A DNA stretch of 64,000 nucleotides from Patescibacteria group bacterium (GCA_041749335.1 JBGTBM010000007.1:85408-149407); one strand, 5' to 3'; positions 12,000-35,055 are shown, counted from the first letter of the stretch. The notes: generated by a model not told the origin, from the letters alone. A program made the numbers and translations.

Positions 12000-12875
12000 A
12001 TGTCTAAAATAAGAAAAGTCGTGATTCCGGTAGCAGGATATGGAACCAGATTTTTACCGGCCACCAAAGCGCAGCCAAAAGAATTAATGCCGGTAGTTGA
12101 TAAGCCGATTGTGCAATATGTAGTGGAGGAGGCAGTAGCTTCGGGCATTACCGATGTTATTTTAATAACCGGTGCGAGTAAACATGCGGTGGAAAATCAT
12201 TTTGACTATAATTACGAGCTTCAGGCCATGCTTAAAAAACAAGGCAAAGAAGAAAAGAGAGCTGAAATTAAAGAAATTGCGGACATGGCTAATTTTATTT
12301 ATGTTCGTCAAAAAGGACCTTATGGCAATGGTACTCCGATTTTATGTGCCAAAGAAGTAGTTGGTGATGAACCCTTTGCGGTATTGTGGGGCGATGAATT
12401 TTTTTATTCTACCGGAAAGCCCAGATTAAAGCAGCTGATTGAAGTTTACGATAAATATACAGATCCGGTTTTAACCGCCAAGGAAACTGATGATGAAGGT
12501 ACGAGGAAATATGGAATATTGGACGCAGTGAAAGTTGAAGATAATGTTTTCCAAGTAAATAAAATAGTAGAGAAGCCGGGTCCGGAAAAAGCGCCGTCGC
12601 ACTTGGCATCATTGGGAGGTTTTGTTTTAACGCCGGATATTTTTGAGGAGCTGGAAAAAACAAAATTGGGAAAAGATAATGAACTTTGGCTGGTGGATGC
12701 CATATTTTCCTTGTCTAAAAAAAGGCCGATTTATGCCTGCGAAGTAGATGCCGACTACTATGACACCGGTTCAAAGATAGGCTGGCTTAAAGCTAATATT
12801 GATATGGGTCTGAAACATCCGGAAGTAAAAGACGACCTAATAAAACTCATAAAAGAAAAAAATAACTTAATATAA
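12000..12875 (+). CDS. galU: UTP--glucose-1-phosphate uridylyltransferase
   Basis: VIPVAGYGTRFLPATKAQPKELMPVVDKPIVQYVVEEA is the classic GalU N-terminal nucleotide-binding signature. Length 291 aa. Confidence 0.88.
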   Translation: MSKIRKVVIPVAGYGTRFLPATKAQPKELMPVVDKPIVQYVVEEAVASGITDVILITGASKHAVENHFDYNYELQAMLKKQGKEEKRAEIKEIADMANFIYVRQKGPYGNGTPILCAKEVVGDEPFAVLWGDEFFYSTGKPRLKQLIEVYDKYTDPVLTAKETDDEGTRKYGILDAVKVEDNVFQVNKIVEKPGPEKAPSHLASLGGFVLTPDIFEELEKTKLGKDNELWLVDAIFSLSKKRPIYACEVDADYYDTGSKIGWLKANIDMGLKHPEVKDDLIKLIKEKNNLI

Positions 12876-12877: not shown

Positions 12878-14191
12878 ATGAAAAATAAAAGCAAGTTTTT
12901 CCGCATCGGAGTCATACTGTTTGCCATTTTACTGTTTGCCGGTTTTGGTTGTAAGGATGATAGCCAAAAACAAGACGCGGAGCAATTAGAACCGGTAGAA
13001 ATTGTTATTTGGAGCTTATGGGATGAAAAAGAAGTATATGATCCTTTGTTGAATGAATATACAAAGCTTAATCCCAATATTCGCTTTGATTACAAAAAAT
13101 TTACTTTTGAAGAATATGAACAGGCTGTTGTTAATGCATTGGCCGCTGGCAAGGGCCCGGATATTTGGTTGATGCACCATACTTGGCTGCCAAAACATCT
13201 GGATAAATTAGCTTCTATGCCGGAAGGCAAGATGTCAGCTTTTGAATATTCCGATACCTTTGTCGATGTGGCATATAATGATTTTGTTATCGACAATCAA
13301 ATATATGGAATTCCGCTTTCAGTCGATACGCTGGCAATGTATTACAATAAAGATTTATTTAATTCAGCAGCCATTACTAATCCTCCGGCCAATTGGCAAG
13401 AATTCAAGGATGATGCCAGGGCTTTAACCAAAATTAATGAGTATGGCGATATTCAGCAGGCCGGGGCGGCCATCGGTACCGCTAGAAATATAAACCGAGC
13501 AGTAGATATTCTATACTTGCTGATGATCCAAAACGGTACGGAAATGACTGATGAAAACAATACTAATGTTTTATTTAATCAGTCTGCTACGGCCGCGGAC
13601 GGAGAAGAATATATTCCCGGATTGGACGCTTTGATTTTTTATACCGATTTTGCCAATCCTAAAAAAACCATCTATACCTGGAATCCCACCATGCACTATA
13701 ACACTGACGCTTTTATTGAAGAGAGCGTAGCAATAATGTTTAATTATTCTTATCAAAATGAGGTAATTAGAGGCAAGGCTCCTCGCATGAATTATGGCAT
13801 TGCGCCCGCTCCGCAAATTGAGGGATCGTCCAAGAGATATGATTTTGCCAATTATTGGGGATTTACGGTAGCTAATAATTCAAAAAATCAGGAAATCGCC
13901 TGGGATGTGCTTACCTTTTTAGGCAAGCAAGAAAATGTTAAAGCATATACCGAAACCACTAAAAGGCCGGCTTCTCGTAGAGATGTTTTGAACGAACAAT
14001 TGCAAGATCCTGACCTAAAGGTTTTTGCCGAGCAAGCATTATCGGCCCAGAGCTGGCATCAGGTTGATCCCGGGCAAATTGAAGCGATTATGGCCGACAT
14101 GATCGAAAAAGTCGCTTTAGGAGAGATTGAAGCCGAAGAAGCCTTAAATGACGCAGTCAATCGAGTGGATGTTTTAATGAGTAATCAATAA
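12878..14191 (+). CDS. Lipoprotein, extracellular solute-binding protein (ABC sugar-transporter SBP family 1-like); no cognate permease nearby
   Basis: Signal peptide with a Cys (LFAGFGCKDD). Size and composition (aromatic- and Asn-rich, ~437 aa) fit family 1. The call is heuristic. Confidence 0.55.
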   Translation: MKNKSKFFRIGVILFAILLFAGFGCKDDSQKQDAEQLEPVEIVIWSLWDEKEVYDPLLNEYTKLNPNIRFDYKKFTFEEYEQAVVNALAAGKGPDIWLMHHTWLPKHLDKLASMPEGKMSAFEYSDTFVDVAYNDFVIDNQIYGIPLSVDTLAMYYNKDLFNSAAITNPPANWQEFKDDARALTKINEYGDIQQAGAAIGTARNINRAVDILYLLMIQNGTEMTDENNTNVLFNQSATAADGEEYIPGLDALIFYTDFANPKKTIYTWNPTMHYNTDAFIEESVAIMFNYSYQNEVIRGKAPRMNYGIAPAPQIEGSSKRYDFANYWGFTVANNSKNQEIAWDVLTFLGKQENVKAYTETTKRPASRRDVLNEQLQDPDLKVFAEQALSAQSWHQVDPGQIEAIMADMIEKVALGEIEAEEALNDAVNRVDVLMSNQ

Positions 14192-14196: not shown

Positions 14197-14940
14197 ATGA
14201 TTAAGTTGGAAAAAATAATAATGATATTGTTAATATTTGGATTATTTGCTGTATTTCAATTTCCAAATATTACATATGCAGAAGATGAAAAAATTTTAGA
14301 CAAAGGAGCATATTGTGGATTTTATCAACCTTTTTATGTTACGCCAACCATGAAATCTAAAACATTGGAAGGTTATAAATGTATAGAAGGTACAGTTTGT
14401 GGCTACGCAAGCGTCTGCGATGAGCTGCCCGCAAGTGCTACTGAGGCGGGATATAAGGGCAAACCAAGATTTGCATGTATACCTCCCGAGTGGGTTCAAC
14501 AAAGACAGGATCAATTAACTGCCTGTATTCAAGGAGGTCCAGAAAAGGCTGCCGAAGAAGCAAAAAAAACTAAAGCAGACAATGCTTGTCTTGCTCAAGC
14601 TACCTCGACAGAAAGGGGGATTTTTACTAGAGACCTATCACCAAAATGTTTTGCTTGCGGGGAATGTACTCAAAAAGATGTTTTCCAGGAATTTATTAAT
14701 ATTTTTACCTTTATTCTACAAATTTCCGGAAGTTTAGCTGTATTAGTCATAGTAATTGGGGGAATTATGTACATGACAGCGGCCGGCGATCAGCAAAAAA
14801 CACAAAAGGCCAAAGGAGCTTTGACAGCGGCTATTATAGGTCTTATAATAGTTCTAGTGGCATTCACCTTGATAACATTTGTGATGAATTTATTGGGGTA
14901 TTCAAATGCCGGTTCATGGTACAGTCCCAGTTTAAAATAA
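14197..14940 (+). CDS. Secreted Cys-rich protein with a C-terminal TrbC/VirB2-like (T4SS-pilin-like) two-helix domain; paralog 1 of 4
   Basis: N-terminal signal/TM segment. About 140 aa containing 10 Cys (YCGF, KCIEGTVCGYASVCDE, FACIPP, TACIQ, NACLAQ, PKCFACGEC). C-terminal LAVLVIVIGGIMYMTAAGDQQKTQKAKGALTAAIIGLIIVLVAFTLITFV is shared with the three downstream paralogs. Confidence 0.55.
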   Translation: MIKLEKIIMILLIFGLFAVFQFPNITYAEDEKILDKGAYCGFYQPFYVTPTMKSKTLEGYKCIEGTVCGYASVCDELPASATEAGYKGKPRFACIPPEWVQQRQDQLTACIQGGPEKAAEEAKKTKADNACLAQATSTERGIFTRDLSPKCFACGECTQKDVFQEFINIFTFILQISGSLAVLVIVIGGIMYMTAAGDQQKTQKAKGALTAAIIGLIIVLVAFTLITFVMNLLGYSNAGSWYSPSLK

Positions 14941-14944: not shown

Positions 14945-15358
14945 ATGTATAAAAATAAAATTATCGCTTTAGTAATTTTGATCATTTTTTCTAGTTTAAT
15001 TGTTTCCAATTTTGTATTGGCGCAAACTACTCCCAACGCTCCCAATATCCCATCAACATCAAATACTCCTAGCACCACCACGGGCACAAAAACATCAACT
15101 GCGACATTGACTAATCCTCTGTCGGTTAGTACGCCTGGGGCATTGATCGGAAATATTATTAAAACGTTAATGGGTGTCGTGGGGGTTGTGGCAGTTTTAA
15201 TGATTGTCTGGGGAGGTGTAATGTATATGACTTCGGCCGGCAGTGATGAAAAAATCGGCACAGCCAAGAAAATAATAACCGGAGCAATTATCGGCCTAGT
15301 GATATCAATATTGGCATATGTAATAATTGATTTTGTTATTAAAGCAATCGGAGGATAA
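14945..15358 (+). CDS. TrbC/VirB2-like pilin-like small protein (paralog 2); Thr/Ser/Pro-rich variable region
   Basis: Signal peptide; NAPNIPSTSNTPSTTTGTKTSTATLTNP; conserved C-terminal VGVVAVLMIVWGGVMYMTSAGSDEKIGTAKKIITGAIIGLVISILAYVIIDFV. Confidence 0.55.
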   Translation: MYKNKIIALVILIIFSSLIVSNFVLAQTTPNAPNIPSTSNTPSTTTGTKTSTATLTNPLSVSTPGALIGNIIKTLMGVVGVVAVLMIVWGGVMYMTSAGSDEKIGTAKKIITGAIIGLVISILAYVIIDFVIKAIGG

Positions 15359-15363
15359 ATATT

Positions 15364-15765
15364 ATGAAAACAAACTTGATAAATTTATTAGTGGTAATAC
15401 TAGCCTCATTATTTATTATATTTCCCATTGCACAGTTTTGCTATGCGGGCACTACTACCACTACCCCTTCAACTACCACCGGCTCTGACAAATACGGCCT
15501 TGGCGATGTAAAGAGTAGCGGACTGGTTACCAAAGATGCTACCGAAGTGGTCGGCAGTATTATTCAAACAATTATCGGGATCGTCGGTGTAATATTGGTA
15601 GTAGTACTTATTTATGGCGGAGTGCTCTATATGACTTCTGGAGGCAGTGAAGAGAAAACAAAAACTGCGAAAAAAGCGATAACCTATGGAATTGTCGGAA
15701 TAACTATTATTGCCCTGGCATTTGCAGTTACTCGCTTTGTGCTTGATGCGTTAATTAAACAATAG
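15364..15765 (+). CDS. TrbC/VirB2-like pilin-like small protein (paralog 3)
   Basis: Signal peptide; TTTTTPSTTTGS; conserved C-terminal VGVILVVVLIYGGVLYMTSGGSEEKTKTAKKAITYGIVGITIIALAFAVTRFV. Confidence 0.55.
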   Translation: MKTNLINLLVVILASLFIIFPIAQFCYAGTTTTTPSTTTGSDKYGLGDVKSSGLVTKDATEVVGSIIQTIIGIVGVILVVVLIYGGVLYMTSGGSEEKTKTAKKAITYGIVGITIIALAFAVTRFVLDALIKQ

Positions 15766-15796
15766 GATTAATAAAAATAAAATATATTGAAGGGAG

Positions 15797-16195
15797 GTGA
15801 TATCAGTGAAAAAATACATAAAGTTAATTTCAGCAAGCCTGGTAGCCGTTTTTGCGTTGGCGTTGGTTGTTCCTGCTGTAGCAGGTGCAGCCGCAACTCC
15901 TCCTACCAGTCCGACTGAATTACTAAATCAAACCGCAAATAAGTCAGGACAAACCCAAACTAGATCATTAACGGATATAATCGGTAACATTATTCAATGG
16001 ATTTTAGGCCTAGTTGGTGTGGTTTTGCTAATTATGTTTATTTATGGCGGTGTGCTTTATGCAACATCTGCCGGCAATGAAGATAAAGTAGAAACAGGCA
16101 AAAAGGTGATGCTATATGCTATTATCGGAGTGGTTATTATCGCTTTGGCGTTTGCCTTAACCAGATATGTAATCGATGCCTTATTTCAAGCGTAA
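15797..16195 (+). CDS. TrbC/VirB2-like pilin-like small protein (paralog 4)
   Basis: Signal peptide (AAATPPTSPTELLNQ); conserved C-terminal VGVVLLIMFIYGGVLYATSAGNEDKVETGKKVMLYAIIGVVIIALAFALTRYV. SD gaagggaggtg lies upstream. Confidence 0.55.
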   Translation: MISVKKYIKLISASLVAVFALALVVPAVAGAAATPPTSPTELLNQTANKSGQTQTRSLTDIIGNIIQWILGLVGVVLLIMFIYGGVLYATSAGNEDKVETGKKVMLYAIIGVVIIALAFALTRYVIDALFQA

Positions 16196-16210
16196 AAATT
16201 TAACAATTAT

Positions 16211-16245
16211 AAAACAGGCAATGTATACAGCCTGTTTTATTATTT
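16211..16245. terminator. Bidirectional terminator between the convergent pilin-like array and the GT-C gene
   Basis: aaaacaggc-(10 nt loop)-gcctgtttt with A/T runs on both sides. Confidence 0.55.
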
Positions 16246-17760
16246 TAGTTTATATATTAAAATGTTTTCATTTTCATAAATTGTTTCGAATCTGAAGTCT
16301 TTTTTAGCATAATCGACAAATTCAGAAAAATCTTTATTTATAAAAACATAGTCAGCCTTAAAGTCTTGTTTAATAATTTGATAAGAGTTCTCTAGCGATT
16401 GTTGAGAAAATAATTGATGCCACTTTTGATATAAATTATAATTATATTCTTTCATGAAATTAGGGTCCAGACCGGCAATGTAATAATTTTGATCATTGTA
16501 AAATAACAATTGCGGTGATTCGCTCCAGTCCAAATGATAAACAATTTCATTAGCCGGAATATTTTCTTTCATCCAAATACTGGCTTTCTTGATATTTGTT
16601 TTATCCTCTTTGTCATTATTGAGATTAAAATATACCGCTTGAAAATTATAAATGGCTGCGCTTGTAAGTAAAAAAATAATTAATAATTTTGAAGTATATT
16701 TATTTTTAAATAAAAATAATTTACCGATATATTTATTAATAGCAATATGATTATTTGTATATAAGTAAGCGGCCAGCAGGATAATTAGCGGAGCGCTATA
16801 TTCAATCATTTTTCTTACAACGATTGTCAGTATAAAAAAAATTACTGCGTTTAAAAATAAAAATAATGTTATTTTGCCAATTTTTCTATGTTTAATTTTG
16901 GTTAATAAAATTATAAAAATAGAAATGACAAAGAGCGCGATAATTATCAAAGAAGACGAGATTAAAAAACGTGGAGCAGACATATACCATTCAATTCCTA
17001 CCGGCATATTTGAAAAAGGGTCTTTTAAGGCAACTTGGTATAAATGAAAAAAAAGATGGTAAATATTTTTAGGAAAATATGGATTTAAAATTATGGCGAT
17101 AACAACTCCGGTAAGATAACAAAAAATCGGGTAAAATAAATCGGAGATTAATTTGGTATTTTTGGTTTTAAATAAATAGTAAACTTCAATCAGAGATTTA
17201 ATAGCAATGACAATGCCTAAAATAATAAATCCATCAAAGAGCCAAGCATAAAAAATAGTAAGCGGTATTAAATATATATAATTATTTTTAATCAGCAGAT
17301 AAATTCCTATTAGTAAAAGAATTAAAGCCAAGCTTTGCGCTCGCAGTAAGTTTAGCCGAAAAATAAAAAGCGAAGAGGAAAAAAGCAACAGCAGAGTCCA
17401 AAAGTGCGGAAACTTGATGTTAAGTTTTTTCAAAATAACAAAAAAAGCAATAAAAAAAGCGGCTGAAAAAATGATAGTAGCAATTTTAGCAGCTAAAAAT
17501 GGTTCTAATAATTTAAAAAAGGGCAGCAGTAATATATGAAAAAGAAGGTGATGCTCAACGAAATTATCATTTAATATGGTGTATTGCAGCCAGGGAAAAA
17601 TTTCAACCAACTTGCCGCTATCTAAAATAAGTTGAGCCATTTTGGCGTGATAATAGACATCGGTACATAAAAACTCATAAGCTTTAAATTGAATAATAGC
17701 TATAAATGAAATTACAGTTGTGATTAATATGATGTACTTTAAATAAAATTTTATACGCAT
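16240..17760 (-). CDS. Large polytopic membrane protein, putative GT-C-fold glycosyltransferase (PMT_2/ArnT/oligosaccharyltransferase-like)
   Basis: 506 aa with ~12 TM helices in the N-terminal 400 aa and a soluble C-terminal ~100 aa domain, an architecture typical of GT-C enzymes. No unambiguous catalytic motif was identified by eye. Confidence 0.35.
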   Translation of the reverse strand: MRIKFYLKYIILITTVISFIAIIQFKAYEFLCTDVYYHAKMAQLILDSGKLVEIFPWLQYTILNDNFVEHHLLFHILLLPFFKLLEPFLAAKIATIIFSAAFFIAFFVILKKLNIKFPHFWTLLLLFSSSLFIFRLNLLRAQSLALILLLIGIYLLIKNNYIYLIPLTIFYAWLFDGFIILGIVIAIKSLIEVYYLFKTKNTKLISDLFYPIFCYLTGVVIAIILNPYFPKNIYHLFFHLYQVALKDPFSNMPVGIEWYMSAPRFLISSSLIIIALFVISIFIILLTKIKHRKIGKITLFLFLNAVIFFILTIVVRKMIEYSAPLIILLAAYLYTNNHIAINKYIGKLFLFKNKYTSKLLIIFLLTSAAIYNFQAVYFNLNNDKEDKTNIKKASIWMKENIPANEIVYHLDWSESPQLLFYNDQNYYIAGLDPNFMKEYNYNLYQKWHQLFSQQSLENSYQIIKQDFKADYVFINKDFSEFVDYAKKDFRFETIYENENILIYKLK

Positions 17761-17800
17761 ATTTAAATCAATAATATCATTAAAGTGCTCATTGTTAAAT

Positions 17801-17869: not shown

Positions 17870-18295
17870 CTAGAGAGGAGGATCAACGGCGGCGAAGTTG
17901 TAGAAGGGGTCCCTGCCTTTGTTCTGTTTGGGCTGACGAGAGGAGGGCTGGTAGGATTTCTGCTTTTTCTGCTGGGGGTAGGCGCGTCGCTGGTACTCAT
18001 GATACCGGCGGTTGCCTTCCATCTCTCTCGCGTGCATCCGCTGGATTGCCTCTTCACTCTCCTGTGTGAGCTTGTCTTGGCACCCTTTGATCGGTGTGAA
18101 GACGCAGGTGTAGAAAAGCACTCCAAAAACCAGTGGTACGAAAGTCCAGAAGAACAGCGGCTCCATCTTTTCAAAGTTGATAGTGAGACTGCGAGGAGCA
18201 GGCGGACTGTTTGAAACAGCAGCTTGCTTGCTTCGCGCCCGAAAAACCATAGCTGCCACGAAAATGATGCAGCCAACCAGGAATATGTATCCCAT
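17870..18295 (-). CDS. Membrane protein co-transcribed with the SPFH gene (possible NfeD/YqiJ-like partner)
   Basis: 141 aa. Two N-terminal TM helices, then a charged Gln/Arg/Lys-rich tail. GC-rich codon usage like the upstream SPFH gene. The overlapping + strand ORFs are judged spurious. Confidence 0.5.
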   Translation of the reverse strand: MGYIFLVGCIIFVAAMVFRARSKQAAVSNSPPAPRSLTINFEKMEPLFFWTFVPLVFGVLFYTCVFTPIKGCQDKLTQESEEAIQRMHAREMEGNRRYHEYQRRAYPQQKKQKSYQPSSRQPKQNKGRDPFYNFAAVDPPL

Positions 18296-18310: not shown

Positions 18311-19234
18311 CTATTTTTTCTTACCCGGGCCCTTCATGGCGTCGGCCATAATGTGGGCGATCGGAATAGACGCAGCGAGGCCGGAGGCGAGATCATCGGA
18401 AACGATGTAAACGCCGTCGCCCTTGGCCATTTCTTCACGACCTTCAATGCCGCGAATGGCGGCGCCTTCCGCCGGAGTCCAGTGCTTTTTGCCAAGGATG
18501 GAGCTATAGACTTCATCGACACGTTCTTTCTCCGCCTGGGCATCCATACGCTTGGCATCGGCTTTGGCGGCCGCGACTTTGCGGACCTTGATCGCCTCGG
18601 CGTCCGCTTCGAGTGAAGCAGATTCCGGCTTGCTGATCGCGGCTTCCAGTTCTTGTGGAAGCTCCAGGTTCGTAAGTAGTATGCTTACGTTCCGAATTTG
18701 CGATTCAACAAGAATGTTGTGGCGATCATTTTTTAATAGATTATCCAGACGATCTTTTATATCAGTATTGAATTCTTTACGATCATGGTAAAGTCTCTCC
18801 CAGTCAAACTCTTGGCAAACATCCTCTACCAAATCCACGACCGGCTCCATAAAAAGACTGTGGAGATATTCGGATTCAAGTGAATTAATAATTTTGACTG
18901 TCTTAAGCAGCAAGGGAAGTTCCATAGGGCGCATGCGCGTGGGGTACCGGAAGCGTAAGGACAGATGAACAGTAACGTTGACCGCCGAGTGGCCCTTGTC
19001 CTTCTTTGTCAATATGCGAGTATTGAACTCTAATTCCTGCTTGGATGTTGGGAAAACGATCAAATCGCAGAGGGGAAAGGGGATGAAAATCAGACCCGAT
19101 TCTACCGCTTTTTCCGGCTTGCCGAAGGTGGTTACCACCCCGGCCTCTGCCGCCTTAACGACGCGCACAGACTTATACAGCCAAAAACCGATCAGAACCG
19201 CAAGTCCCAGAATAAAAGCCGTTGCTTCGGACAT
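18311..19234 (-). CDS. SPFH/band-7 (stomatin/prohibitin/HflKC-like) domain membrane protein
   Basis: N-terminal TM helix followed by VVKAAEAGVVTTFGKPEKAV..., the canonical start of the SPFH domain. A long coiled-coil Ala/Glu/Lys-rich C-terminal region (EADAEAIKVRKVAAAKADAKRMDAQAEKERV). Confidence 0.75.
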   Translation of the reverse strand: MSEATAFILGLAVLIGFWLYKSVRVVKAAEAGVVTTFGKPEKAVESGLIFIPFPLCDLIVFPTSKQELEFNTRILTKKDKGHSAVNVTVHLSLRFRYPTRMRPMELPLLLKTVKIINSLESEYLHSLFMEPVVDLVEDVCQEFDWERLYHDRKEFNTDIKDRLDNLLKNDRHNILVESQIRNVSILLTNLELPQELEAAISKPESASLEADAEAIKVRKVAAAKADAKRMDAQAEKERVDEVYSSILGKKHWTPAEGAAIRGIEGREEMAKGDGVYIVSDDLASGLAASIPIAHIMADAMKGPGKKK

Positions 19235-19902: not shown

Positions 19903-21033
19903 ATGAAAATTTTTTATATCGCCACTACCGTCCATCTCGGTAAAAATTTAGACGAAGGCTTGGGCAGCACCACCCATACTTATTTTATTGCCAAGGAGCT
20001 TACTAAGTTGGGGCATGAAGTGCATGTAATTTCCAAAAGGTATTCCGATGATGCTAAATTTGAAATAATTAATGGCATTCAAGTACATCGTTTAAAAAGA
20101 GGAGTGGTGGCATCCGGAAAATCATTGGAAAAAAGCCCTTTTAAAAAATATTTTAAGCCGTTTAAGGCTTTTTTGAATATCGTTTTAGCTTATCAAATCT
20201 ATAAATTAGTGGATCAATACGGCTGCGATATAATTTTGGAACGGAACCATTCCTTGGGAGTCGGCGCACTAACTTCTTATCTGACCGGGCGCCCCTTGGT
20301 ATTGGAGGTGATTGATAGTATTTTAAGCAAATATTCGATCAAGCGGGCAAAACATATCATCGCCTATACCGACCGATTTTTTAGAAAAACCGATCAGTCC
20401 AAAGTTAAGTTGGTTAAGGTGGGTTTTGATCCTTCAACTTTTTATCCCGAATTTATGAAAACAAAGTATGATATTTGTTATGCGGGATCTTTCAAGCCTT
20501 GGGACGGCGTAGAAGATTTAATCGTGGCGATAAATTTATTAGTGAACAGATATCATTTAGATAAAGTCAAAGCGGTGATGGTCGGATCGGGAGAAGTTTT
20601 TGATCAGGCTATGAAACTTATCAAAAATTATAAACTGGAAAATAATATTATTATGGCGGGGCGGGTGGAAATTGCAAAAGTTCGAAAATATATCAATAGC
20701 TCGAAATTATGCGTGGCGCCTTATAATATTAAAAAATCCGATCGCGGGGAATTTGATAAATATGGATTCTATTACGCTCCGCTTAAAGTAGTTGAATATA
20801 TGGCTTGCGGAATGCCGATAGTGGCAACTAAGTATGTGATGATAAAAAATATATTGCCTCAAAACGGAGCAAAATATTTTGCCGAGGGCGATGTAGACGA
20901 TTTAGCCATTAATATTAAAGATGTGCTAAAATCCGATCAAATTTTAGCCATGGGAGAAAGTAATTTAAAGGAGTCCAAGAAATATACATGGCAAAAAGTG
21001 GCAGCGGATTTCGATCGAGTCTTTAATAGTTGA
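19903..21033 (+). CDS. Glycosyltransferase family 4 (GT-B)
   Basis: N-terminal GT4 domain (IATTVHLGKNLDEGLGSTTHTYFIAKELTKLGHEVHVI) and a GT1/4 C-terminal domain. Confidence 0.7.
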   Translation: MKIFYIATTVHLGKNLDEGLGSTTHTYFIAKELTKLGHEVHVISKRYSDDAKFEIINGIQVHRLKRGVVASGKSLEKSPFKKYFKPFKAFLNIVLAYQIYKLVDQYGCDIILERNHSLGVGALTSYLTGRPLVLEVIDSILSKYSIKRAKHIIAYTDRFFRKTDQSKVKLVKVGFDPSTFYPEFMKTKYDICYAGSFKPWDGVEDLIVAINLLVNRYHLDKVKAVMVGSGEVFDQAMKLIKNYKLENNIIMAGRVEIAKVRKYINSSKLCVAPYNIKKSDRGEFDKYGFYYAPLKVVEYMACGMPIVATKYVMIKNILPQNGAKYFAEGDVDDLAINIKDVLKSDQILAMGESNLKESKKYTWQKVAADFDRVFNS

Positions 21034-22192
21034 TTTGTCTAAATAAAACTTTTTCTAACTCTTTGGCAAGGTTGGGATAAAAATAATTTTGCGCCTTAAT
21101 ATGTCCGCTTGCTCCGAAATTATCTCGGAGATTTTTATTTTTGAGCAGTTTTTCCAATGCATTTTCCAGGGCAATTTGATCCCAAGGTTCAATCAATAAT
21201 CCATTTACGCCATTATCAATCACAAAAGGCACTCCGCCGGCATTTGTGCCAACGCTGGGTTTGCGCTGCGCCATTGCTTGTAAAAATACCTGGCCAAAAG
21301 CTTCATAACTGGATGGCAGAACTAAAATATCGCAGGCGGCCAGCGCGTCATTTTTATCTTGGCCGTAAAGTGGTTCCAGGATAAAAACATTTTTAATATT
21401 ATCTTTTATAATTATCTCCTTAAGCTGAGTAGTAAATTCCAATTTGTCATAATCTTTATCATCGGGGCCAATATAGACAAGTTTGGCATCCGGAATTTCT
21501 CTTTGGATATTTTTAAAAGCATCAAGCAGCATAAAAATTCCTTTTTGTTTGCGAATTCGCCCTAAAAATAAAATAATTTGGCTTCTGATGCCGAACCTCC
21601 GATAAAAGTCAGTTGGGCTGCCGGGTGTTAATTCATCTTTGGTTAGTCCACATGGAGTTTCATGGACTTTATTTAGATCAATGTCCTGTTTTTTCAACCA
21701 GGGGATTACAGCTTGAGTGCGGATAAATATATTTGTGCATTTATTAAAGATCCGGCGTGCAAAAAGGCGGTCAAACAGATCGAGCGGTATTTGCTTGTAA
21801 AAGGCTCGAGGCTTTTTTTGCGATTGGATGTCATAGAGCAACACGGAAAAAGGAATATTGTTTTTCCGGCAATACCTTAGTGCTTGCCAGGTTTGCGTCT
21901 GAGCATAATCCAAACTCATTACTGCGTCCAATTTATATTTACACATTTTTTTACTAATGCCCGGCCAATATTTTGCTCGATAAAAAAAACCATAGCTAGG
22001 TAGGCGATGAATTCTGACTCCTTCTATAACATCTTCAGGCTTATCGGCTTTCTTCGTAGCTTGGGTGAAAACATGGACTTCATGCCCCAAATTAGAAAGC
22101 TCTCTGGTGATATGCAGGGAATACCACTCAATGCCGCCGGCCATGTCGGGATAATAATTAGGGCAAATGTATCCGATACGCATATATTTCAT
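21023..22192 (-). CDS. Glycosyltransferase family 4
   Basis: ICPNYYPDMAGGIEWYSLHITRELSNLGHEVHVFT; EAFGQVFLQAMAQRKPSVGTNAGGVPFVIDNGVNGLLIEP (the E-X7-E-type motif region). Confidence 0.8.
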   Translation of the reverse strand: MKYMRIGYICPNYYPDMAGGIEWYSLHITRELSNLGHEVHVFTQATKKADKPEDVIEGVRIHRLPSYGFFYRAKYWPGISKKMCKYKLDAVMSLDYAQTQTWQALRYCRKNNIPFSVLLYDIQSQKKPRAFYKQIPLDLFDRLFARRIFNKCTNIFIRTQAVIPWLKKQDIDLNKVHETPCGLTKDELTPGSPTDFYRRFGIRSQIILFLGRIRKQKGIFMLLDAFKNIQREIPDAKLVYIGPDDKDYDKLEFTTQLKEIIIKDNIKNVFILEPLYGQDKNDALAACDILVLPSSYEAFGQVFLQAMAQRKPSVGTNAGGVPFVIDNGVNGLLIEPWDQIALENALEKLLKNKNLRDNFGASGHIKAQNYFYPNLAKELEKVLFRQINY

Positions 22193-22234
22193 TAAAACAA
22201 AAATAACTTAAGGTCGTTGTTTTGTTTCCATGTT

Positions 22235-23242
22235 TTAAAGTTCATTTGTTTCGCCGCAAACTTTGCATAGAGGCAGTTGACGTCTTTTCATCAGCTTGCG
22301 GGTTGATCTATATCTCTCACTATTCCAGATATTGTTAAAATTTTGTTCGAAAATATTACCCATCTTATATTTACCCTTAATATCATAACAACAAATGCAA
22401 ACAGTGCCGTCTGCCAAAATAAAACTGCGCTGGACATTGCTACAGGCAAAATCTCTTTTTAAGTTTTTTTCATTATCATATCGGCTTTTGCCGGAATCGG
22501 GCAAATATTCCGCTGCCAACTTATCGCTTTGTTCCCGGCTTAATATCCAGGAAGGTATTCCTAAAGATTTGACCGCGTAATCAACTTTTAAATCTTGCGC
22601 AATTTCTTTAAATTTATCTTTTTGCTGTTGATTTATTTTAGAAAAAATAAATTGCAATTCAATTTGCGGTTTTAGCTTTTTTTGAATTGTCTTTTCATTG
22701 TTGATGAATTTTATGGCGTTAATTACTTTATAAAAATCTCCGCCTTTGCGCATTTTTTGATAGGTTTCATTATCGGTGCCATCCAACGATACGATTAATT
22801 TATCTAGGCCGCTTGCGACAATCTTTTCGGCCGCGCCTTCATCGATTAAATTGGCATTACTGCTGGTAGTGGTATGAAGGTTATTCTGGTTAGCGTAGCT
22901 TACCATTTCTGTGAAATGAGGATTTAAGAAAGGCTCGCCGGCCAAAAAAAGCCAGATATGATGCGTGTGATTTTTTATTTTATTAATGGTTTGTTTAAAT
23001 TCATTTAAGGTCATCGCACGCCTGGGGCGTTCAATCAGGCAGGGCGGCGATGAGCAGAAATCACAATTTAAGTTGCAAACATTAATTGGTTCAATGCTGA
23101 TATTCCTGGGATAATTAAGAAATATTTGCTTGGGAAATATTTTAAATAAATGATAAATTTTGCCATAATCTTTGTTTTTATAATCCAGCTTTATTTCGTT
23201 TAGGTATCTTTTGGCGACGCGTTTAAATTTTTTTAAAGTCAT
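22235..23242 (-). CDS. Radical SAM protein with C-terminal SPASM/twitch Cys cluster
   Basis: CNLNCDFC (CX3CX2C) near the N-terminus. C-terminal CSNV...CICCYD...CKVCGE cysteine cluster. Confidence 0.75.
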   Translation of the reverse strand: MTLKKFKRVAKRYLNEIKLDYKNKDYGKIYHLFKIFPKQIFLNYPRNISIEPINVCNLNCDFCSSPPCLIERPRRAMTLNEFKQTINKIKNHTHHIWLFLAGEPFLNPHFTEMVSYANQNNLHTTTSSNANLIDEGAAEKIVASGLDKLIVSLDGTDNETYQKMRKGGDFYKVINAIKFINNEKTIQKKLKPQIELQFIFSKINQQQKDKFKEIAQDLKVDYAVKSLGIPSWILSREQSDKLAAEYLPDSGKSRYDNEKNLKRDFACSNVQRSFILADGTVCICCYDIKGKYKMGNIFEQNFNNIWNSERYRSTRKLMKRRQLPLCKVCGETNEL

Positions 23243-24168
23243 AGTTTTAGATAAGCGGTTAAGGCAACAATTGAAAATATAATTTCCAATAAAGTTAAAT
23301 ATAAAAAGGCATTCTGAAATTTATCCGTTTGTTCCGGGGAATCGTTTCCAATATTGAGTGAGCGTAGTCTTTTTTGTTCTCGGTCAAAGCTTTTTTTATA
23401 TAAAAAGTAATAAACTAAATAAGGGATCAGCAGGATCAAAAAAGGAATAATGGTATTTTGCAATATGGCGGCGCAGGCCACGATCGCTCCCAGGGAAAAT
23501 CTACCCACCTTGCCCAGTGAGAGTTTAGTATTGGTGAGATTATACATCTGTAAAAAAATGATGATACCACCGATCGTACTTAAAATCAGCTGCGACGTAT
23601 AGTTTTCTTCAAATACCGCCATGATAAATAAAGCTATCGTAATGATTGAGCCTAAAGCTAGATTTATTTTATTAAAGCTTTTAACGCCGTTAAAAAGCTT
23701 GGATGAAACAATGATGACAACGGGTACCGCGATAAAAAGGTAAATATTTGATTTATTTAAAGTTCCGTCAATAAAGGGATTATTTTGGTTAATAACGGCG
23801 GTTAATATGGGCATTATAGCGCAAATGAAAAAAATATTTCTTATTAAGTGAGTGGGGAATCGCAAAATATCATCAACAAAGCCGATAAAAGCGATAACCG
23901 CGATGCTTAAGAAGCTGGTGAAAAGCAAATAAGTATTTATATTTATATCGTCAGTGAAATTTTGAATGGTAAGAATAATGGAAATAACGATAAAAAAAAG
24001 CAATACGCTTAAAAGTCCTTCTAGGCTTTGTACGCGCGGTTTTTTGAATTTATTATTATCTTCGTTTCTAATCTTTTTCTTTTCTATCCAATTTTTTATA
24101 TAAGGAAATAAAGTAAAAGATAGTGTACTGGATAATAAGAAAGCGATTGTAACTAAAATCCAATTCAT
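23239..24168 (-). CDS. MraY/WecA-family paralog, degenerate (lacks PGxGG and NxxNxxDGxDGL motifs); possibly non-catalytic
   Basis: Polytopic membrane protein that shares GFVDDILRFP with the downstream paralog. It overlaps that paralog by 4 nt. The other catalytic motifs are absent. Confidence 0.45.
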   Translation of the reverse strand: MNWILVTIAFLLSSTLSFTLFPYIKNWIEKKKIRNEDNNKFKKPRVQSLEGLLSVLLFFIVISIILTIQNFTDDININTYLLFTSFLSIAVIAFIGFVDDILRFPTHLIRNIFFICAIMPILTAVINQNNPFIDGTLNKSNIYLFIAVPVVIIVSSKLFNGVKSFNKINLALGSIITIALFIMAVFEENYTSQLILSTIGGIIIFLQMYNLTNTKLSLGKVGRFSLGAIVACAAILQNTIIPFLILLIPYLVYYFLYKKSFDREQKRLRSLNIGNDSPEQTDKFQNAFLYLTLLEIIFSIVALTAYLKL

Positions 24169-25184
24169 CTATATAAATTAAATGTATGAAATATAAGGGC
24201 GATTACTGCGCATGAACCTTCAATGATCATTAATCTATGAACTAATTTTTTTTCGGTAATATTTTTTGATTTTTGCATTATCAAGTGGGTCAGTCCGTAA
24301 GCTTTTTTATATTCGCTTTTAATATTTCCCTGGCGGTCAATGACGCCTCTTTCTCTCGGCCTGGTTTTAATGGTTTTACGATCCCAGGTAATGCGCTGCT
24401 GCAATATTAAGTGTAAAAGATAAGGAATCATCAAAATTAACAGCGGATATTTAAGATTTCCTAAAATCGCTCCAACGGCAATGGCGCTGCCGGCGAAAAG
24501 AGTGCCGATATTGCCGCTAAAAATTTTGGCGGGAAACTTATTGTAAAAATAAAAGATAAGTAGTGCGCCGACCAAGGCGGCCAGAATAACCATGGCGGTT
24601 GTTTGATTAGATAAATAAGCGCAAATAAAAAGCGTAATTGATATTATTAAGCCGTTGCCGGGCATCAATCCGTCAAAATCCGCCATAATATTAATTGCAT
24701 TAGAAACAAAAACAATAATCAAGGGGACGATAATTAAAGGATAGATATAATGTAGATTGATATTTCCTAATAAGGGTACATTGAAAATAGTGCTTTGCCC
24801 GTACGCAATGGTCATCATTGGTATAGAGGCCAAGAGAGCAAAAATGGGCTTTATCGGTCTGATCGGAAACATTAAGATGTCATCTGTAATTCCCACAAAA
24901 GCCATAATGATGATTGATAAAATACCGGGAAGCAGTAGCACCAAATTAATACCATCAAAATCAAAAAGCATTTTTAAAGCGATGATGGCGGAAAGCGAAA
25001 AAAAGAAACTCAAAAGCAGGGCAATGCCGCCCAATCCCGGAATACGGCGCTGATCCAGCTTATTCATATCTGTCACGACAAATTTCTTGTATTTATGCCA
25101 TTTGATTACATAGGGAACCAGCCATAATGTTGATATGGTTGAAATTATGAAAGCGGTGATTGTTAAAAATAATTCTGATTTCAT
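24165..25184 (-). CDS. Polyprenyl-phosphate N-acetylhexosamine-1-phosphate transferase (MraY/WecA/GT4 family)
   Basis: RRIPGLGGIALL (KxxxPxxGG), GITDDIL, NAINIMADFDGL (NxxNxxDGxDGL) and FSGNIGTLFAGSA are all present. Confidence 0.75.
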   Translation of the reverse strand: MKSELFLTITAFIISTISTLWLVPYVIKWHKYKKFVVTDMNKLDQRRIPGLGGIALLLSFFFSLSAIIALKMLFDFDGINLVLLLPGILSIIIMAFVGITDDILMFPIRPIKPIFALLASIPMMTIAYGQSTIFNVPLLGNINLHYIYPLIIVPLIIVFVSNAINIMADFDGLMPGNGLIISITLFICAYLSNQTTAMVILAALVGALLIFYFYNKFPAKIFSGNIGTLFAGSAIAVGAILGNLKYPLLILMIPYLLHLILQQRITWDRKTIKTRPRERGVIDRQGNIKSEYKKAYGLTHLIMQKSKNITEKKLVHRLMIIEGSCAVIALIFHTFNLYR

Positions 25185-25209
25185 AATGGAAAGTATTTGT
25201 ATTTATCGT

Positions 25210-25335
25210 CCCCTCCTCAGATGAGGAGGGGAATTAAAGGGGAGGTGATGATTTTTAACAAACAGCACCCCCTCCTCCCGACTTAACGTCGGGATACTCC
25301 TGCCTGCGGTAGGCAGGCCCCCTCGACTGAGGGGG
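25210..25335. repeat. Cluster of 4-5 consecutive GC-rich hairpins in an AT-rich intergenic region
   Basis: cccctcctca-ga-tgaggagggg (25210-25231); tcccgac-ttaac-gtcggga (25276-25294); cctgcc-tgcggta-ggcagg (25299-25317); ccccctc-gact-gaggggg (25318-25335). The third resembles the 3209-3228 palindrome. Confidence 0.7.
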
Positions 25336-25362
25336 AGAAGTAAAAAATACTAATTCTTAAAG

Positions 25363-26205: not shown

Positions 26206-26331
26206 TGATTTATGCGCTAATTTATGATAAAATATAAATAAGAAATAAAGCTTCGTGAATAAGCCTTCCTTTTAACCAGTCTACTCAATATAGTGCAAAA
26301 AATCAATTAAAAACCTTTAAATAAGGCTAAA

Positions 26332-27231: not shown

Positions 27232-27237
27232 AAAAAT

Positions 27238-28056: not shown

Positions 28057-28068
28057 AAAAATAATTAT

Positions 28069-28746: not shown

Positions 28747-28748
28747 AG

Positions 28749-29114: not shown

Positions 29115-29198
29115 TGTGGGGAGCGGTAGGGACTTTATTTTATGCAATATTGCTGTGGCGGAAAGTTAGACGAAAATTATCAATAAAAGCAGTAAAAA

Positions 29199-29340
29199 GT
29201 TACAAGGACACAAGATACAAGGATACAAAAATATTATAAATAAAGTCAAATAGTTGATTGTGGTTTAAATAATTTGACATAAAATAATTCAAGGAGGAAT
29301 GCATCAAGTAACAAGTGACAAGAAACAAGATACAAAAGTT
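29199..29340 (+). repeat. Heptad/octad (N)ACAAG direct-repeat arrays (two blocks)
   Basis: gttacaag gacacaag atacaagg atacaaaa (29199-29232) and caagtaa caagtga caagaaa caagata caaaagt (29305-29340). The second block overlaps the 5' end of the four-helix-bundle ORF. Confidence 0.7.
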
Positions 29341-29776: not shown

Positions 29777-29779
29777 TTT

Positions 29780-35054: not shown

Positions 35055-35055
35055 T

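What the first reader, a model, noticed from the sequence alone, without database searches (positions are those of the whole stretch)
14945..17760. Ser/Thr/Pro-rich pilin-like proteins sit next to a convergent GT-C-like 12-TM membrane protein: possible dedicated O-glycosylation of the pilin array
Immediately downstream and convergent, separated only by a bidirectional terminator, is a 506-aa polytopic protein whose architecture (about 12 TM helices plus a C-terminal soluble domain) resembles GT-C glycosyltransferases (PMT/ArnT/PglL/AglB-like). In other bacteria, protein O-oligosaccharyltransferases of this fold glycosylate pilins on Ser/Thr. The adjacent pilin-like genes carry long poly-Thr/Ser/Pro tracts. 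The ~37 kb glycan-assembly locus starts only 2 kb further on (19903 onward) and could supply the lipid-linked glycan.
Basis: inference. Interest (0 to 1): 0.55.

Follow-up and report, generated by a model that had tools for sequence, protein, structure and literature searches.

The report
Unannotated membrane glycosyltransferase beside pilin genes
The 506-residue membrane protein is very probably a lipid-sugar-dependent glycosyltransferase from a large family that no database names, but comparison with about 170 related loci gives no sign that it exists to glycosylate the neighbouring pilin-like proteins.

Summary
Four tandem genes (14197-16195, +), not three, encode VirB2/TrbC-type "T4SS_pilin" proteins. 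Three of them carry short (17-33 aa) Ser/Thr/Pro-rich tracts. They converge on a 506-aa gene (16240-17760, -) across a bidirectional hairpin terminator.

The 506-aa protein has no Pfam, NCBIfam or PDB sequence match. Its AlphaFold model (pLDDT 95) is a GT-C fold, closest to STT3, PglB and DPY19. It has 11 TM helices, an invariant Asp34 in the first outer loop, and a 125-aa outer C-terminal domain. The family is large, with at least 2,382 clusters at 50% identity.

Relatives often lie next to a DPMS/AglJ-like GT2, and in two loci are fused to it. The donor is therefore probably a polyprenyl-phosphate monosaccharide, not the glycan built by the adjacent 37-kb locus.

Dedicated pilin glycosylation is not supported:
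- Pilin arrays lie 3' of the gene in 40 of 86 loci, but RuvC, YebC and PGI are linked just as often.
- Only 4 of 33 pilin arrays found independently have the enzyme nearby.
- Ser/Thr/Pro richness does not track the enzyme's presence.

The acceptor is unresolved. Surface proteins remain one candidate.

The parts
12000..12875 (+). GalU (UTP-glucose-1-phosphate uridylyltransferase), first gene of the + strand unit; starts 134 bp after the 5S rRNA
   Evidence: NCBIfam TIGR01099 galU, E 4.7e-97; Pfam NTP_transferase in the identical locus L001; rRNA positions
12878..14191 (+). Orphan SBP_bac_1 sugar-binding lipoprotein (lipobox GFGC) that precedes the pilin array
   Evidence: PF01547, E 5.8e-27. 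In 60 of 63 SBP-selected loci with room, a pilin gene starts within 300 bp on the same strand.
14197..14940 (+). Large pilin-like protein (247 aa): signal peptide, Cys-rich N-domain, C-terminal T4SS_pilin hairpin
   Evidence: PF18895, E 2.3e-13, residues 162-229
14945..15358 (+). VirB2-like pilin paralogue (137 aa) with a 33-aa tract of 61% Ser/Thr/Pro after the signal peptide
   Evidence: PF18895, E 5.7e-12; linker composition; model has helices 3-27, 64-97 and 101-136, with residues 24-63 disordered
15364..15765 (+). VirB2-like pilin paralogue (133 aa) with a poly-Thr tract (TTTTTPSTTT)
   Evidence: PF18895, E 9e-12; NF045849 at 45.8 bits, above its cut-off of 40; linker composition
15797..16195 (+). 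VirB2-like pilin paralogue (132 aa) with the tract ATPPTSPT
   Evidence: PF18895, E 2.7e-15; PF04956 TrbC, E 2.7e-4; NF045849 at 45.8 bits
16209..16240 (.). Bidirectional intrinsic-terminator hairpin between the convergent genes
   Evidence: Sequence read directly; fold -13.6 kcal/mol, z -3.3
16240..17760 (-). GT-C-fold glycosyltransferase of an unannotated family (506 aa): 11 TM helices, N-terminus in, C-terminal 125-aa alpha/beta domain out. Invariant D34, H38, R135, P227, F229, P230, E257 and D432.
   Evidence: No Pfam, NCBIfam or PDB sequence hit; AF2 pLDDT 95; Foldseek STT3, PglB, DPY19, AglB, ALG12, ArnT; conservation; topology
17771..17798 (-). Promoter-like site (TTAACA-16-TATTAT with TG) just upstream of the glycosyltransferase start codon
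   Evidence: Consensus scan, 10 of 12 matches. This is a consensus match only, and such sites are not more frequent here than in shuffles.
17870..18295 (-). 141-aa two-TM protein of unknown function, upstream of the glycosyltransferase and co-directional with it
   Evidence: ORF; called as a gene in L001; no Pfam hit. A small TM protein plus Band_7 follows the pilin array directly in relatives that lack the glycosyltransferase.
18311..19234 (-). Band_7/SPFH protein; high-GC outlier (GC 0.505)
   Evidence: PF01145, E 1.2e-18; composition
19903..57172 (.). Glycan-assembly locus. It is context only and is not shown to be linked to the glycosyltransferase.
   Evidence: Pfam scans

Best explanation
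The gene at 16240-17760 encodes a GT-C-fold glycosyltransferase that acts outside the cytoplasmic membrane. It belongs to a large family without any database model, remotely related to STT3/AglB-type enzymes.

Proposed mechanism:
1. A cytoplasmic DPMS/AglJ/GtrB-like GT2 charges polyprenyl phosphate with a single sugar. A hexose, possibly glucose, is suggested by the PGI and GalU neighbours.
2. The lipid-linked sugar is flipped across the membrane.
3. The 11-TM enzyme transfers the sugar to an acceptor at the outer face. It would use Asp34 (first outer loop), Glu257 (large outer loop), conserved basic residues (K92, R135, R317) and its C-terminal outer domain.

The position of the gene next to the VirB2-like pilin array is a conserved piece of Patescibacteria gene order. 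It is not evidence of a dedicated pilin-glycosylation system. The acceptor is unresolved. Extracytoplasmic segments of surface proteins, pilin-like proteins among them, and envelope glycopolymers are about equally likely.

Shown: the fold, the conserved outer-face residues, the family size, and the GT2 adjacency and fusion in relatives.
Inferred: the donor type, the catalytic roles of individual residues, and the acceptor.
For: Fold. The AF2 model has pLDDT 95 and pTM 0.93. The 27 best Foldseek PDB hits are all GT-C enzymes or GT-C-like proteins: STT3 (E 7e-10, TMq 0.69-0.71), PglB (1e-8), DPY19 (2e-7), AglB, ALG12, ArnT (1e-5), ALG9, AftA, a GPI mannosyltransferase, a GPI-transamidase subunit and EmbA.

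Sequence-level links. hhalign gives 94.4% probability to a PMT_2-bearing neighbour cluster, with Asp34 aligned to its conserved loop-1 Asp, and 98.4% to a paralogous 545-aa family. A GT2 control gives 0.4%. 23 of 65 family members weakly hit TIGR04154 archaeo_STT3, best E 2.8e-9.

Active site on the outer face. D34, H38, R135, P227, F229, P230, E257 and D432 are invariant in 65 sequences at 21-62% identity. All fall in loops that the positive-inside rule places outside.

Donor. A 239-aa GT2 lies immediately downstream on the same strand in 19 of 85 loci and within three genes in 32 of 85. It is fused N-terminally to the GT-C in two independent metagenome loci (L112 and L114, 769 aa). This GT2's best solved relatives are DPMS, ArnC and GtrB. 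Its best NCBIfam models are PgfS, AglJ, ArnC and PpgS.

Family size. 2,382 clusters at E<=1e-30 and at least 532 species genomes.

Synteny is no proof of function. YebC occurs in 49, PGI in 46, RuvC in 41 and pilin arrays in 40 of 86 loci. Only 4 of 33 SBP-selected arrays with at least 5 kb of room have the enzyme nearby.
Against: No DPMS-like GT2 lies in the 64-kb window. Its GT2 genes resemble chain-building enzymes, so the donor synthase of this organism was not seen.

Only one GtrA-like flippase was found in the 86 loci.

The closest structural relatives (STT3, PglB, AglB) transfer oligosaccharides en bloc, so an oligosaccharide donor cannot be excluded.

The pilin array is always on the 3' side and convergent: 192 pilin genes downstream and none upstream, in 40 of 40 loci. 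The enzyme also sits by the array in two different flank contexts. Both facts fit a functional tie.

Confidence: 0.6

Rival explanations
1. The enzyme is a dedicated O-glycosyltransferase that modifies the Ser/Thr/Pro-rich N-terminal tracts of the adjacent VirB2-like pilin paralogues after signal-peptide cleavage, at the outer face of the membrane.
For: The topology fits. The pilin tracts are extracytoplasmic and disordered, and the enzyme's conserved residues face outward.

In 40 of 86 loci, and in 32 of 47 CPR loci with at least 9 kb of room, a pilin array lies 3' of the gene. It is always convergent and never upstream.

Adjacency persists in two different flank contexts, including the self-sufficient GT2-GT-C fusions of L112 and L114.

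GalU is co-transcribed with the array in this window and in several relatives.

Precedents exist. TfpW is encoded within the pilin locus (bioRxiv 10.1101/2020.04.19.049825). GT2 plus GT-C glycosylation of Ser/Thr-rich disordered regions is shown in streptococci (PMC12041528).
Against: Only 4 of 33 arrays found independently through the SBP have the enzyme within at least 5 kb.

The median S+T+P fraction of pilin linkers is 0.20, against a proteome value of 0.15. It is the same with the enzyme adjacent (0.21) as without it (0.22); Mann-Whitney p = 0.76. Orthologous pilins look alike with and without the enzyme.

Housekeeping genes RuvC and YebC are linked equally often.

The family occurs in phyla whose loci show no T4SS-type pilins.

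The genes are not co-transcribed.
Confidence: 0.15
2. OST-like en bloc transfer. The enzyme takes the completed lipid-pyrophosphate-linked glycan made by the adjacent 19.9-57 kb locus and exported by its ABC transporter. It ligates that glycan to a surface protein or to the cell wall, as AglB and PglB do.
For: The best structural matches are STT3, PglB and AglB. There are weak archaeo_STT3 profile hits. The locus has PF00953 and Bac_transf initiating enzymes and an ABC-2 exporter, but no recognisable ligase, Wzy_C or LCP gene among the ORFs scanned. The gene is only 2 kb from the locus, in the window and in L002. Its GC3 (0.26) resembles that of the glycan locus.
Against: Adjacency to the glycan locus is lost at 42% identity (L003) and is absent from the other loci.

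The recurrent partner is a DPMS-like GT2, fused in two cases.

The protein has 11 TM helices, not 13. There is no WWDYG motif: the family consensus is DWDDF and the window protein has DWSES. There is no Pfam STT3 hit. N-x-S/T sequons are not enriched in the neighbouring pilins (73 observed, 65 +/- 7 expected).
Confidence: 0.1
3. The protein is not a glycosyltransferase. It would be a polytopic transporter or a structural membrane protein that merely shares a helical-bundle architecture.
For: No curated family model matches it. Two relatives carry a precomputed EpsG (PF14897) label, and one is named 'intracellular septation protein A' by its source.
Against: The 27 best structural matches are all GT-C enzymes or GT-C-like proteins, and no transporter scores below E = 1. 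An invariant Asp sits in the first outer loop at the position of the PMT_2 catalytic Asp. The protein is fused to a GT2 in two loci. Its neighbours are other GT-C families: DUF2079, GT87, PMT_2 and MptA_B.
Confidence: 0.03

Closest known systems
STT3/AglB/PglB oligosaccharyltransferases (GT66) and the DPY19 C-mannosyltransferase
   Same: These are the best structural matches (TMq about 0.6-0.7, E 1e-10 to 1e-6). Shared features are an N-in polytopic core, an acidic residue at the start of the first outer loop, a conserved Glu in a large outer loop, and a C-terminal domain outside the membrane. 23 of 65 members weakly match TIGR04154 archaeo_STT3. A W-D-containing motif (DWDDF) lies about 30 residues after the last TM helix, where OSTs carry WWDYG (the comparison is from my own knowledge of OSTs).
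   Different: The protein has 11 TM helices, not 13. Its C-terminal domain is only about 125 aa. It has no WWDYG motif (DWSES in this protein), no Pfam STT3 hit, and scores far below the NCBIfam cut-off. Its genomic partner is a monosaccharide-charging GT2, not a full lipid-linked-oligosaccharide pathway. Sequons are not enriched in the neighbours.
Three-component extracytoplasmic glycosylation systems: GtrA/GtrB/Gtr*, ArnC/ArnT, CsbB/YfhO, PgfS/PgfM1, GtrB/PgtC2 (PMC11127046, PMC12041528)
   Same: A DPMS-like GT2 is paired with a GT-C transferase acting outside the membrane. Here the pairing is seen as adjacency in 19-37 of about 86 loci and as a fusion in two. The GT2's best family matches are PgfS, AglJ and ArnC. 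In streptococci this scheme glycosylates Ser/Thr-rich disordered regions of membrane-associated proteins.
   Different: The GT-C part belongs to none of the known families (no YfhO, PMT_2 or GtrC-type Pfam hit). No conserved GtrA-type flippase was found. In this window the GT2 partner is not adjacent.
TfpW, the GT-C pilin arabinosyltransferase of Pseudomonas aeruginosa group IV pili (bioRxiv 10.1101/2020.04.19.049825)
   Same: TfpW is a polytopic enzyme with a periplasmic loop 1 and a large periplasmic C-terminal domain. It is encoded within a pilin locus and modifies the pilin using a lipid-carrier-linked sugar.
   Different: TfpW acts on type IV pilins, is Emb-like, and according to that preprint polymerises D-Araf. 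Here the neighbours are VirB2/TrbC-type proteins, the genes are convergent, and the association fails the reverse test. No sequence comparison with TfpW was possible.
PglL/PilO/TfpO O-oligosaccharyltransferases (Wzy_C family)
   Same: These are the classic enzymes that O-glycosylate pilins on Ser/Thr.
   Different: They form a different family. No Wzy_C (PF04932) match was found, and they transfer pyrophosphate-linked oligosaccharides.
VirB2 arrays of Patescibacteria (bioRxiv 10.1101/2025.01.22.634366)
   Same: The four tandem PF18895 genes match the described arrays of 2-11 divergent VirB2-like genes. Identity among the window paralogues is 30-42%.
   Different: This array is not near any T4SS ATPase in the window. 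It sits behind an rRNA operon, GalU and an orphan SBP. A search of that preprint for glycosylation, solute-binding or ABC-transporter terms found neither a glycosyltransferase nor an SBP link.

Membership tests
GT-C glycosyltransferase superfamily (GT-C_A-type fold) | Polytopic membrane core whose structure superposes on solved GT-C enzymes | tested here: met
   AF2 pLDDT 95. The 27 best Foldseek PDB hits are all GT-C enzymes or GT-C-like proteins; best E 7e-10, TMq 0.71.
GT-C glycosyltransferase superfamily (GT-C_A-type fold) | Conserved acidic residue in the first extracytoplasmic loop | tested here: met
   Asp34 is present in 65 of 65 sequences, within a D-x-Y-Y-H motif directly after TM1. 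It aligns with the conserved Asp of a PMT_2-bearing cluster. Topology places it outside.
GT-C glycosyltransferase superfamily (GT-C_A-type fold) | Uses a lipid-phosphate-linked sugar donor | not testable with these tools
   Indirect support only: adjacency and fusion to a DPMS/AglJ-like GT2 in relatives.
STT3/PglB/AglB oligosaccharyltransferases | Match to the STT3 family models above their cut-offs | tested here: not met
   No Pfam hit. The window protein has no NCBIfam hit. 23 of 65 relatives hit TIGR04154 only weakly (best E 2.8e-9; the one score seen, for the L114 protein, was 26 bits against a cut-off of 450).
STT3/PglB/AglB oligosaccharyltransferases | WWDYG motif in the C-terminal domain | tested here: not met
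   The family consensus is DWDDF and the window protein has DWSES at 411-415. This is a resemblance, not the motif.
STT3/PglB/AglB oligosaccharyltransferases | 13 TM helices and a large C-terminal domain | tested here: not met
   11 TM helices and a domain of about 125 aa.
PglL/PilO/TfpO O-oligosaccharyltransferases | Wzy_C (O-antigen ligase-like) domain | tested here: not met
   No Pfam match at E<=1 apart from a chance DUF1706 hit.
PMT / PMT_2 (GT39/GT83, including ArnT) | Match to the PMT or PMT_2 profile | tested here: not met
   No Pfam hit. Only a remote profile-profile relation to a PMT_2-bearing cluster over the N-terminal 200 residues or so, at 94.4% probability. ArnT is a weaker structural match than STT3.
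Three-component periplasmic glycosylation system (GT2 synthase, flippase, GT-C) | A polyprenyl-phosphate sugar synthase (DPMS/GtrB-like GT2) is genetically linked to the GT-C gene | tested here: inconclusive
   Met for the family: immediately downstream in 19 of 85 loci, present in 37 of 86 loci, and fused in L112 and L114. Not met in this window: its GT2 genes are chain-building types.
Three-component periplasmic glycosylation system (GT2 synthase, flippase, GT-C) | GtrA-like or other small flippase in the locus | tested here: not met
   One GtrA-like ORF (L023) in the downstream genes of 86 loci, and none in the window.
T4SS_pilin / VirB2-TrbC pilins (the small proteins) | Profile match and the signal peptide plus two-helix hairpin architecture | tested here: met
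   PF18895 at 45-57 bits against a cut-off of 26.6 in all four proteins. NF045849 is above its cut-off in two. The model shows helices 64-97 and 101-136. The Foldseek search of this low-confidence model was uninformative.
T4SS_pilin / VirB2-TrbC pilins (the small proteins) | Encoded with T4SS machinery (VirB4 and others) | tested here: not met
   No T4SS ATPase among the window ORFs scanned. In related loci, the large upstream gene first suspected to be VirB4 is GyrA.

The most novel reading that the evidence does not exclude
The family is a minimal, previously unrecognised protein-glycosylation system of ultra-small prokaryotes. A distant STT3/DPY19-like GT-C, sometimes fused to its own AglJ/DPMS-like GT2, would transfer a sugar from polyprenyl phosphate onto abundant surface proteins. 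Candidates are the VirB2-like pilins in Patescibacteria, the S-layer protein in DPANN archaea, and PT-rich anti-sigma-like proteins in Anaerolineae. A DWDDF/GLDP motif in the outer domain would take the role that WWDYG has in oligosaccharyltransferases.
Probability: 0.2. Interest if true: 0.7.

Novelty: new variant of a known kind. Interest (0 to 1): 0.4.

Why it matters
Patescibacteria live attached to host cells, and their VirB2-like arrays include genes reported as essential for that lifestyle, as cited in bioRxiv 10.1101/2025.01.22.634366. Almost nothing is known about how their surface is glycosylated.

This work shows that a family of at least 2,400 sequence clusters, spread over Patescibacteria, Chloroflexota, Acidobacteriota, Nitrospirota and DPANN archaea, is a GT-C glycosyltransferase with no Pfam or NCBIfam model. 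It has a clear catalytic signature and a likely lipid-monophosphate sugar donor.

That gives annotators a new family to model. It gives experimenters a defined pair to express, the GT2 plus the GT-C or the natural fusion, together with candidate acceptors.

It also warns that conserved adjacency in these small genomes can be inherited gene order and need not reflect function.

Tried and rejected
Searches and tools that gave nothing:
- Pfam, NCBIfam and PDB sequence searches of the 506-aa protein and of its family profile gave no meaningful hit.
- The full 65-sequence alignment was too divergent for the locus scan, so a 17-sequence subset was used.
- The low-confidence pilin model gave no usable Foldseek match.
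- The consensus terminator scan missed the intergenic hairpin; direct folding found it.
- The organism name could not be recovered.
- Literature searches for GT-C enzymes or oligosaccharyltransferases in Patescibacteria found nothing relevant.

Ideas tested and rejected:
- N-glycosylation sequons in the pilin linkers: 73 observed against 65 +/- 7 in shuffles, so no enrichment.
- Ser/Thr/Pro richness of pilins tracking the enzyme: no difference between arrays with and without it, p = 0.76.
- The conserved 825-aa gene upstream of SBP-pilin arrays being VirB4: it is GyrA.
- A DPMS-like GT2 in the window: the two best single-domain candidates resemble chondroitin-synthase and TarS-type chain builders.
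- A conserved GtrA-type flippase in the glycosyltransferase islands: only one was found.
- Extra N-terminal extensions in longer relatives: these are additional TM helices without a Pfam domain. One relative carries a C-terminal GDPD domain.

Full report
**What is in the sequence.** The window reads like a Patescibacteria (CPR) genome. Evidence for this: low GC, a split rRNA operon, a 23S_rRNA_IVP gene, and best-named homologues from Parcubacteria/Patescibacteria.

A + strand unit starts 134 bp after the 5S rRNA. It runs GalU (12000-12875), an orphan SBP_bac_1 lipoprotein (12878-14191), then four tandem genes of 247, 137, 133 and 132 aa (14197-16195). All four end in a PF18895 T4SS_pilin domain scoring 45-57 bits against a cut-off of 26.6. 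Two also pass the NCBIfam cut-off for the Mbov_0395 pilin-like conjugal-transfer family. They are therefore VirB2/TrbC-type proteins, not type IV pilins.

The three small ones have a signal peptide, then a 17-33 aa tract of 46-61% Ser/Thr/Pro, then a two-helix hairpin. A low-confidence model agrees: residues 24-63 are disordered, and helices span 64-97 and 101-136.

The 506-aa gene (16240-17760, -) converges on the array. The 44-bp spacer holds an A-run, stem, T-run hairpin at -13.6 kcal/mol, z -3.3. The region 19903 to about 57172 is a real glycan-assembly locus.

**What the 506-aa protein is.** It matches no Pfam, NCBIfam or PDB sequence, alone or as a 65-sequence profile. All 80 homologues found are unnamed or 'hypothetical'.

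The family is large:
- 5,748 clusters at 50% identity at E<=1e-3;
- 3,594 at E<=1e-10;
- 2,382 at E<=1e-30;
- at least 532 species-level genomes.

Most members are from Patescibacteria. Others come from Anaerolineae, Pyrinomonadaceae, Nitrospirota and Woesearchaeota.

With the family alignment, AlphaFold2 gives pLDDT 95 and pTM 0.93. The 27 best Foldseek PDB hits are all GT-C enzymes or GT-C-like proteins: STT3 (E 7e-10 to 1e-8, TMq 0.66-0.71), PglB, DPY19, AglB, ALG12, ArnT, ALG9, AftA, a GPI mannosyltransferase, a GPI-transamidase subunit and EmbA. No transporter scores below E = 1.

The model and the positive-inside rule give 11 TM helices, the N-terminus inside, and a C-terminal alpha/beta domain of about 125 aa outside. 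Eight residues are invariant across sequences sharing 21-62% identity with the window protein: D34, H38, R135, P227, F229, P230, E257 and D432. All of them lie on the predicted outer face.

Profile-profile comparison with families found in the neighbouring genes gave:
- 98.4% probability to a paralogous 545-aa family;
- 94.4% to a PMT_2-bearing cluster, with D34 aligned to its conserved loop-1 Asp;
- 0.4% to a GT2 control.

23 of 65 members weakly match TIGR04154 archaeo_STT3, best E 2.8e-9, and no other model recurs.

**Which donor.** In the 86 loci selected through this protein, a 239-aa GT2 lies immediately downstream on the same strand in 19 of the 85 scored. It lies within three genes in 32, and somewhere in the locus in 37 of 86. 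In two independent metagenome loci (L112 and L114), the same GT2 is fused to the N-terminus of the GT-C as one 769-aa ORF.

This GT2's best solved relatives are dolichol-phosphate mannose synthase, ArnC and GtrB. Its best NCBIfam models are PgfS, AglJ, ArnC and PpgS. All of these charge a polyprenyl phosphate with one sugar.

This is the signature of the extracytoplasmic 'three-component' scheme (PMC11127046). That scheme also operates on Ser/Thr-rich disordered regions of streptococcal membrane proteins (PMC12041528).

A monophosphate-linked monosaccharide donor is therefore the better inference. The oligosaccharide from the 37-kb locus is less likely. Adjacency to that locus is kept only in the 62%-identical relative and is lost at 42% identity.

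Two caveats apply. The window itself has no DPMS-like GT2. No conserved flippase was found.

**Is it dedicated to the pilins?**

*Forward test.* In 40 of 86 loci, and in 32 of 47 CPR loci with at least 9 kb of room, a pilin array lies within the flank. It is always 3' of the gene and convergent: 192 pilin genes downstream and none upstream. In nine loci the nearest pilin gene is less than 300 bp away. This is a real, conserved neighbourhood.

It is part of a longer conserved order: RuvC, YebC, PGI, this GT-C, a variable set (GT2, a 545-aa paralogue, DUF2079, GT87-like, PMT_2, PAP2), then the pilin array, SBP and GalU.

*Control.* YebC (49 loci), PGI (46) and RuvC (41) are linked as often as the pilins (40). 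Adjacency here therefore does not by itself imply shared function.

*Reverse test.* I found 80 loci independently through the SBP.
- A pilin gene follows the SBP in 60 of 63 loci with room.
- The GT-C is present in only 4 of 33 loci with at least 5 kb of room.
- Where the GT-C is absent, the array converges directly on a small TM protein plus Band_7. In the window, these same genes lie just beyond the GT-C.

*Acceptor features.*
- The median S+T+P fraction of 144 pilin linkers is 0.20, against 0.15 for the proteome. Only 14% reach 0.35.
- Arrays with and without the enzyme do not differ: 0.21 against 0.22, p = 0.76.
- Orthologous pilins look alike in both groups.
- N-x-S/T sequons are not enriched.

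The comparative evidence therefore gives no support for a dedicated system. It does not exclude pilins as one substrate among others.

**Hints from other lineages.**
- A widely sampled Woesearchaeota member lies divergently next to an 856-aa S_layer_C protein.
- A second archaeal member lies near a protein with what looks, by eye, like a class III (pilin-like) signal peptide.
- The Nitrospirota member lies between N_methyl proteins, a PMT_2 gene, a secretin and T2SSE ATPases.
- Anaerolineae members lie next to an ECF sigma factor and a DUF5667/DUF5666 protein with a long Pro/Thr-rich tract. Ser/Thr/Pro-rich genes make up 7 of 56 near neighbours against 2 of 177 others (p = 8e-4), but this is essentially one lineage.
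- Pyrinomonadaceae members lie next to a response regulator.

These are anecdotes. They keep open the reading that the family modifies surface proteins.

Against that reading, three points suggest glycopolymer work: the islands of several GT-C paralogues, one GDPD fusion, and weak hits to a 'cell surface glycopolymer formation' model.

**Mechanism and probabilities.**
- Very likely, about 0.9: a GT-C glycosyltransferase acting at the outer face of the membrane.
- Likely, about 0.6-0.65: the donor is a polyprenyl-phosphate monosaccharide made by a DPMS/AglJ-like GT2.
- Unresolved: the acceptor. Surface proteins about 0.4-0.45, envelope glycopolymer or lipid about 0.4.
- Unlikely, about 0.15: a system dedicated to the pilin array.
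- About 0.1: en bloc transfer of the neighbouring locus's glycan.
- About 0.03: not a glycosyltransferase.

**Comparison with known systems.** The protein works like the GT-C arm of three-component systems. Structurally it looks most like STT3, PglB and DPY19.

It fails membership of STT3 on four counts: no model hit above cut-off, 11 TM helices, no WWDYG, and a small C-terminal domain. It also fails membership of PMT_2, YfhO and Wzy_C.

The family motif DWDDF (DWSES in this protein) lies about 30 residues after the last TM helix, followed by an invariant GLDP. By my own knowledge of OSTs, this recalls WWDYG. It is a lead, not a test.

The VirB2-like array matches the arrays already described in CPR (bioRxiv 10.1101/2025.01.22.634366). 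A search of that preprint for glycosylation, solute-binding or ABC-transporter terms found no link to a glycosyltransferase or to an SBP.

**Verdict.** The functional story built on adjacency is not borne out.

What remains of interest is a large GT-C family that no database models. It has STT3-like features, a natural fusion to a GT2, and recurrent surface-protein neighbours. Interest is moderate.

Noticed in passing
window 12878-14191; loci L089-L168: An orphan SBP_bac_1 sugar-binding lipoprotein is followed directly by a VirB2-like pilin gene in 60 of 63 SBP-selected loci with room. It also closes 34 arrays in the loci selected through the glycosyltransferase. No ABC permease or ATPase is adjacent. 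The CPR T4SS preprint contains no solute-binding or ABC-transporter terms. The SBP may be an unrecognised component of these pilin arrays.
   Followed up: partly
window 1-11866: The rRNA operon is split. The 16S (1-973, cut by the window edge) and the 23S (8594-11486) are 7.6 kb apart. Between them lie tRNA-Ile, tRNA-Ala, tRNA-Val and protein genes, including a 1298-aa SdrD_B/CarboxypepD_reg surface protein (4463-8359). The GalU-SBP-pilin unit starts 134 bp after the 5S, so read-through from the rRNA promoter is possible.
   Followed up: partly
window 17836-19234: The Band_7 gene and the small gene beside it have GC 0.50-0.52 and GC3 0.54-0.57. They are flanked by the glycosyltransferase (GC 0.27) and by genes of about 0.35-0.40. 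This sharp compositional patchwork suggests recent acquisition or a different origin.
   Followed up: no
window 53387-57172 (-): A 1261-aa protein closes the glycan locus. It has about seven N-terminal TM helices, central TPR repeats (about 735-842) and three C-terminal TM helices. The membrane part has no Pfam match. It could be a second uncharacterised membrane glycosyltransferase, ligase or polymerase.
   Followed up: no
L112:12640-14949 (-), L114:11833-14142 (-): Natural fusions of 769 aa join a DPMS/AglJ-like GT2 (residues 5-228) to the GT-C family domain (227-760). In both loci the fusion gene lies immediately convergent to a pilin array.
   Followed up: partly
L169:3195-5765 and 6001-7497; L171: A Woesearchaeota family member (seen on many marine contigs) lies divergently next to an 856-aa S_layer_C protein. 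Another archaeal member has, two genes away, a 169-aa protein with what looks like a class III signal peptide, and a 677-aa polytopic protein next to it.
   Followed up: partly
L037, L047, L051, L075, L080, L087 (Anaerolineae): Here the family gene sits beside an ECF sigma factor and a DUF5667/DUF5666 anti-sigma-like membrane protein that carries a very long Pro/Thr-rich tract.
   Followed up: partly
P0157 (786 aa): One family member carries a C-terminal GDPD (glycerophosphodiester phosphodiesterase) domain on the predicted outer side. This hints at a glycerophosphate-containing substrate in that lineage.
   Followed up: no
window 22235-23242, 40947-41873, 57249-58661: The glycan locus contains two radical-SAM/SPASM enzymes and one B12-binding radical-SAM enzyme, plus two Asn-synthase-like amidotransferases (41942-45579). 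This suggests unusual sugar modifications.
   Followed up: no
pilin paralogues in the window, L106-L116 and L131 (start of the PF18895 domain): A short motif, [IV]-x-N-P-L, recurs just before the first hydrophobic helix of one pilin paralogue per array. It occurs in arrays with and without the glycosyltransferase. In the window's 137-aa protein it reads TLTNPLSVS.
   Followed up: no
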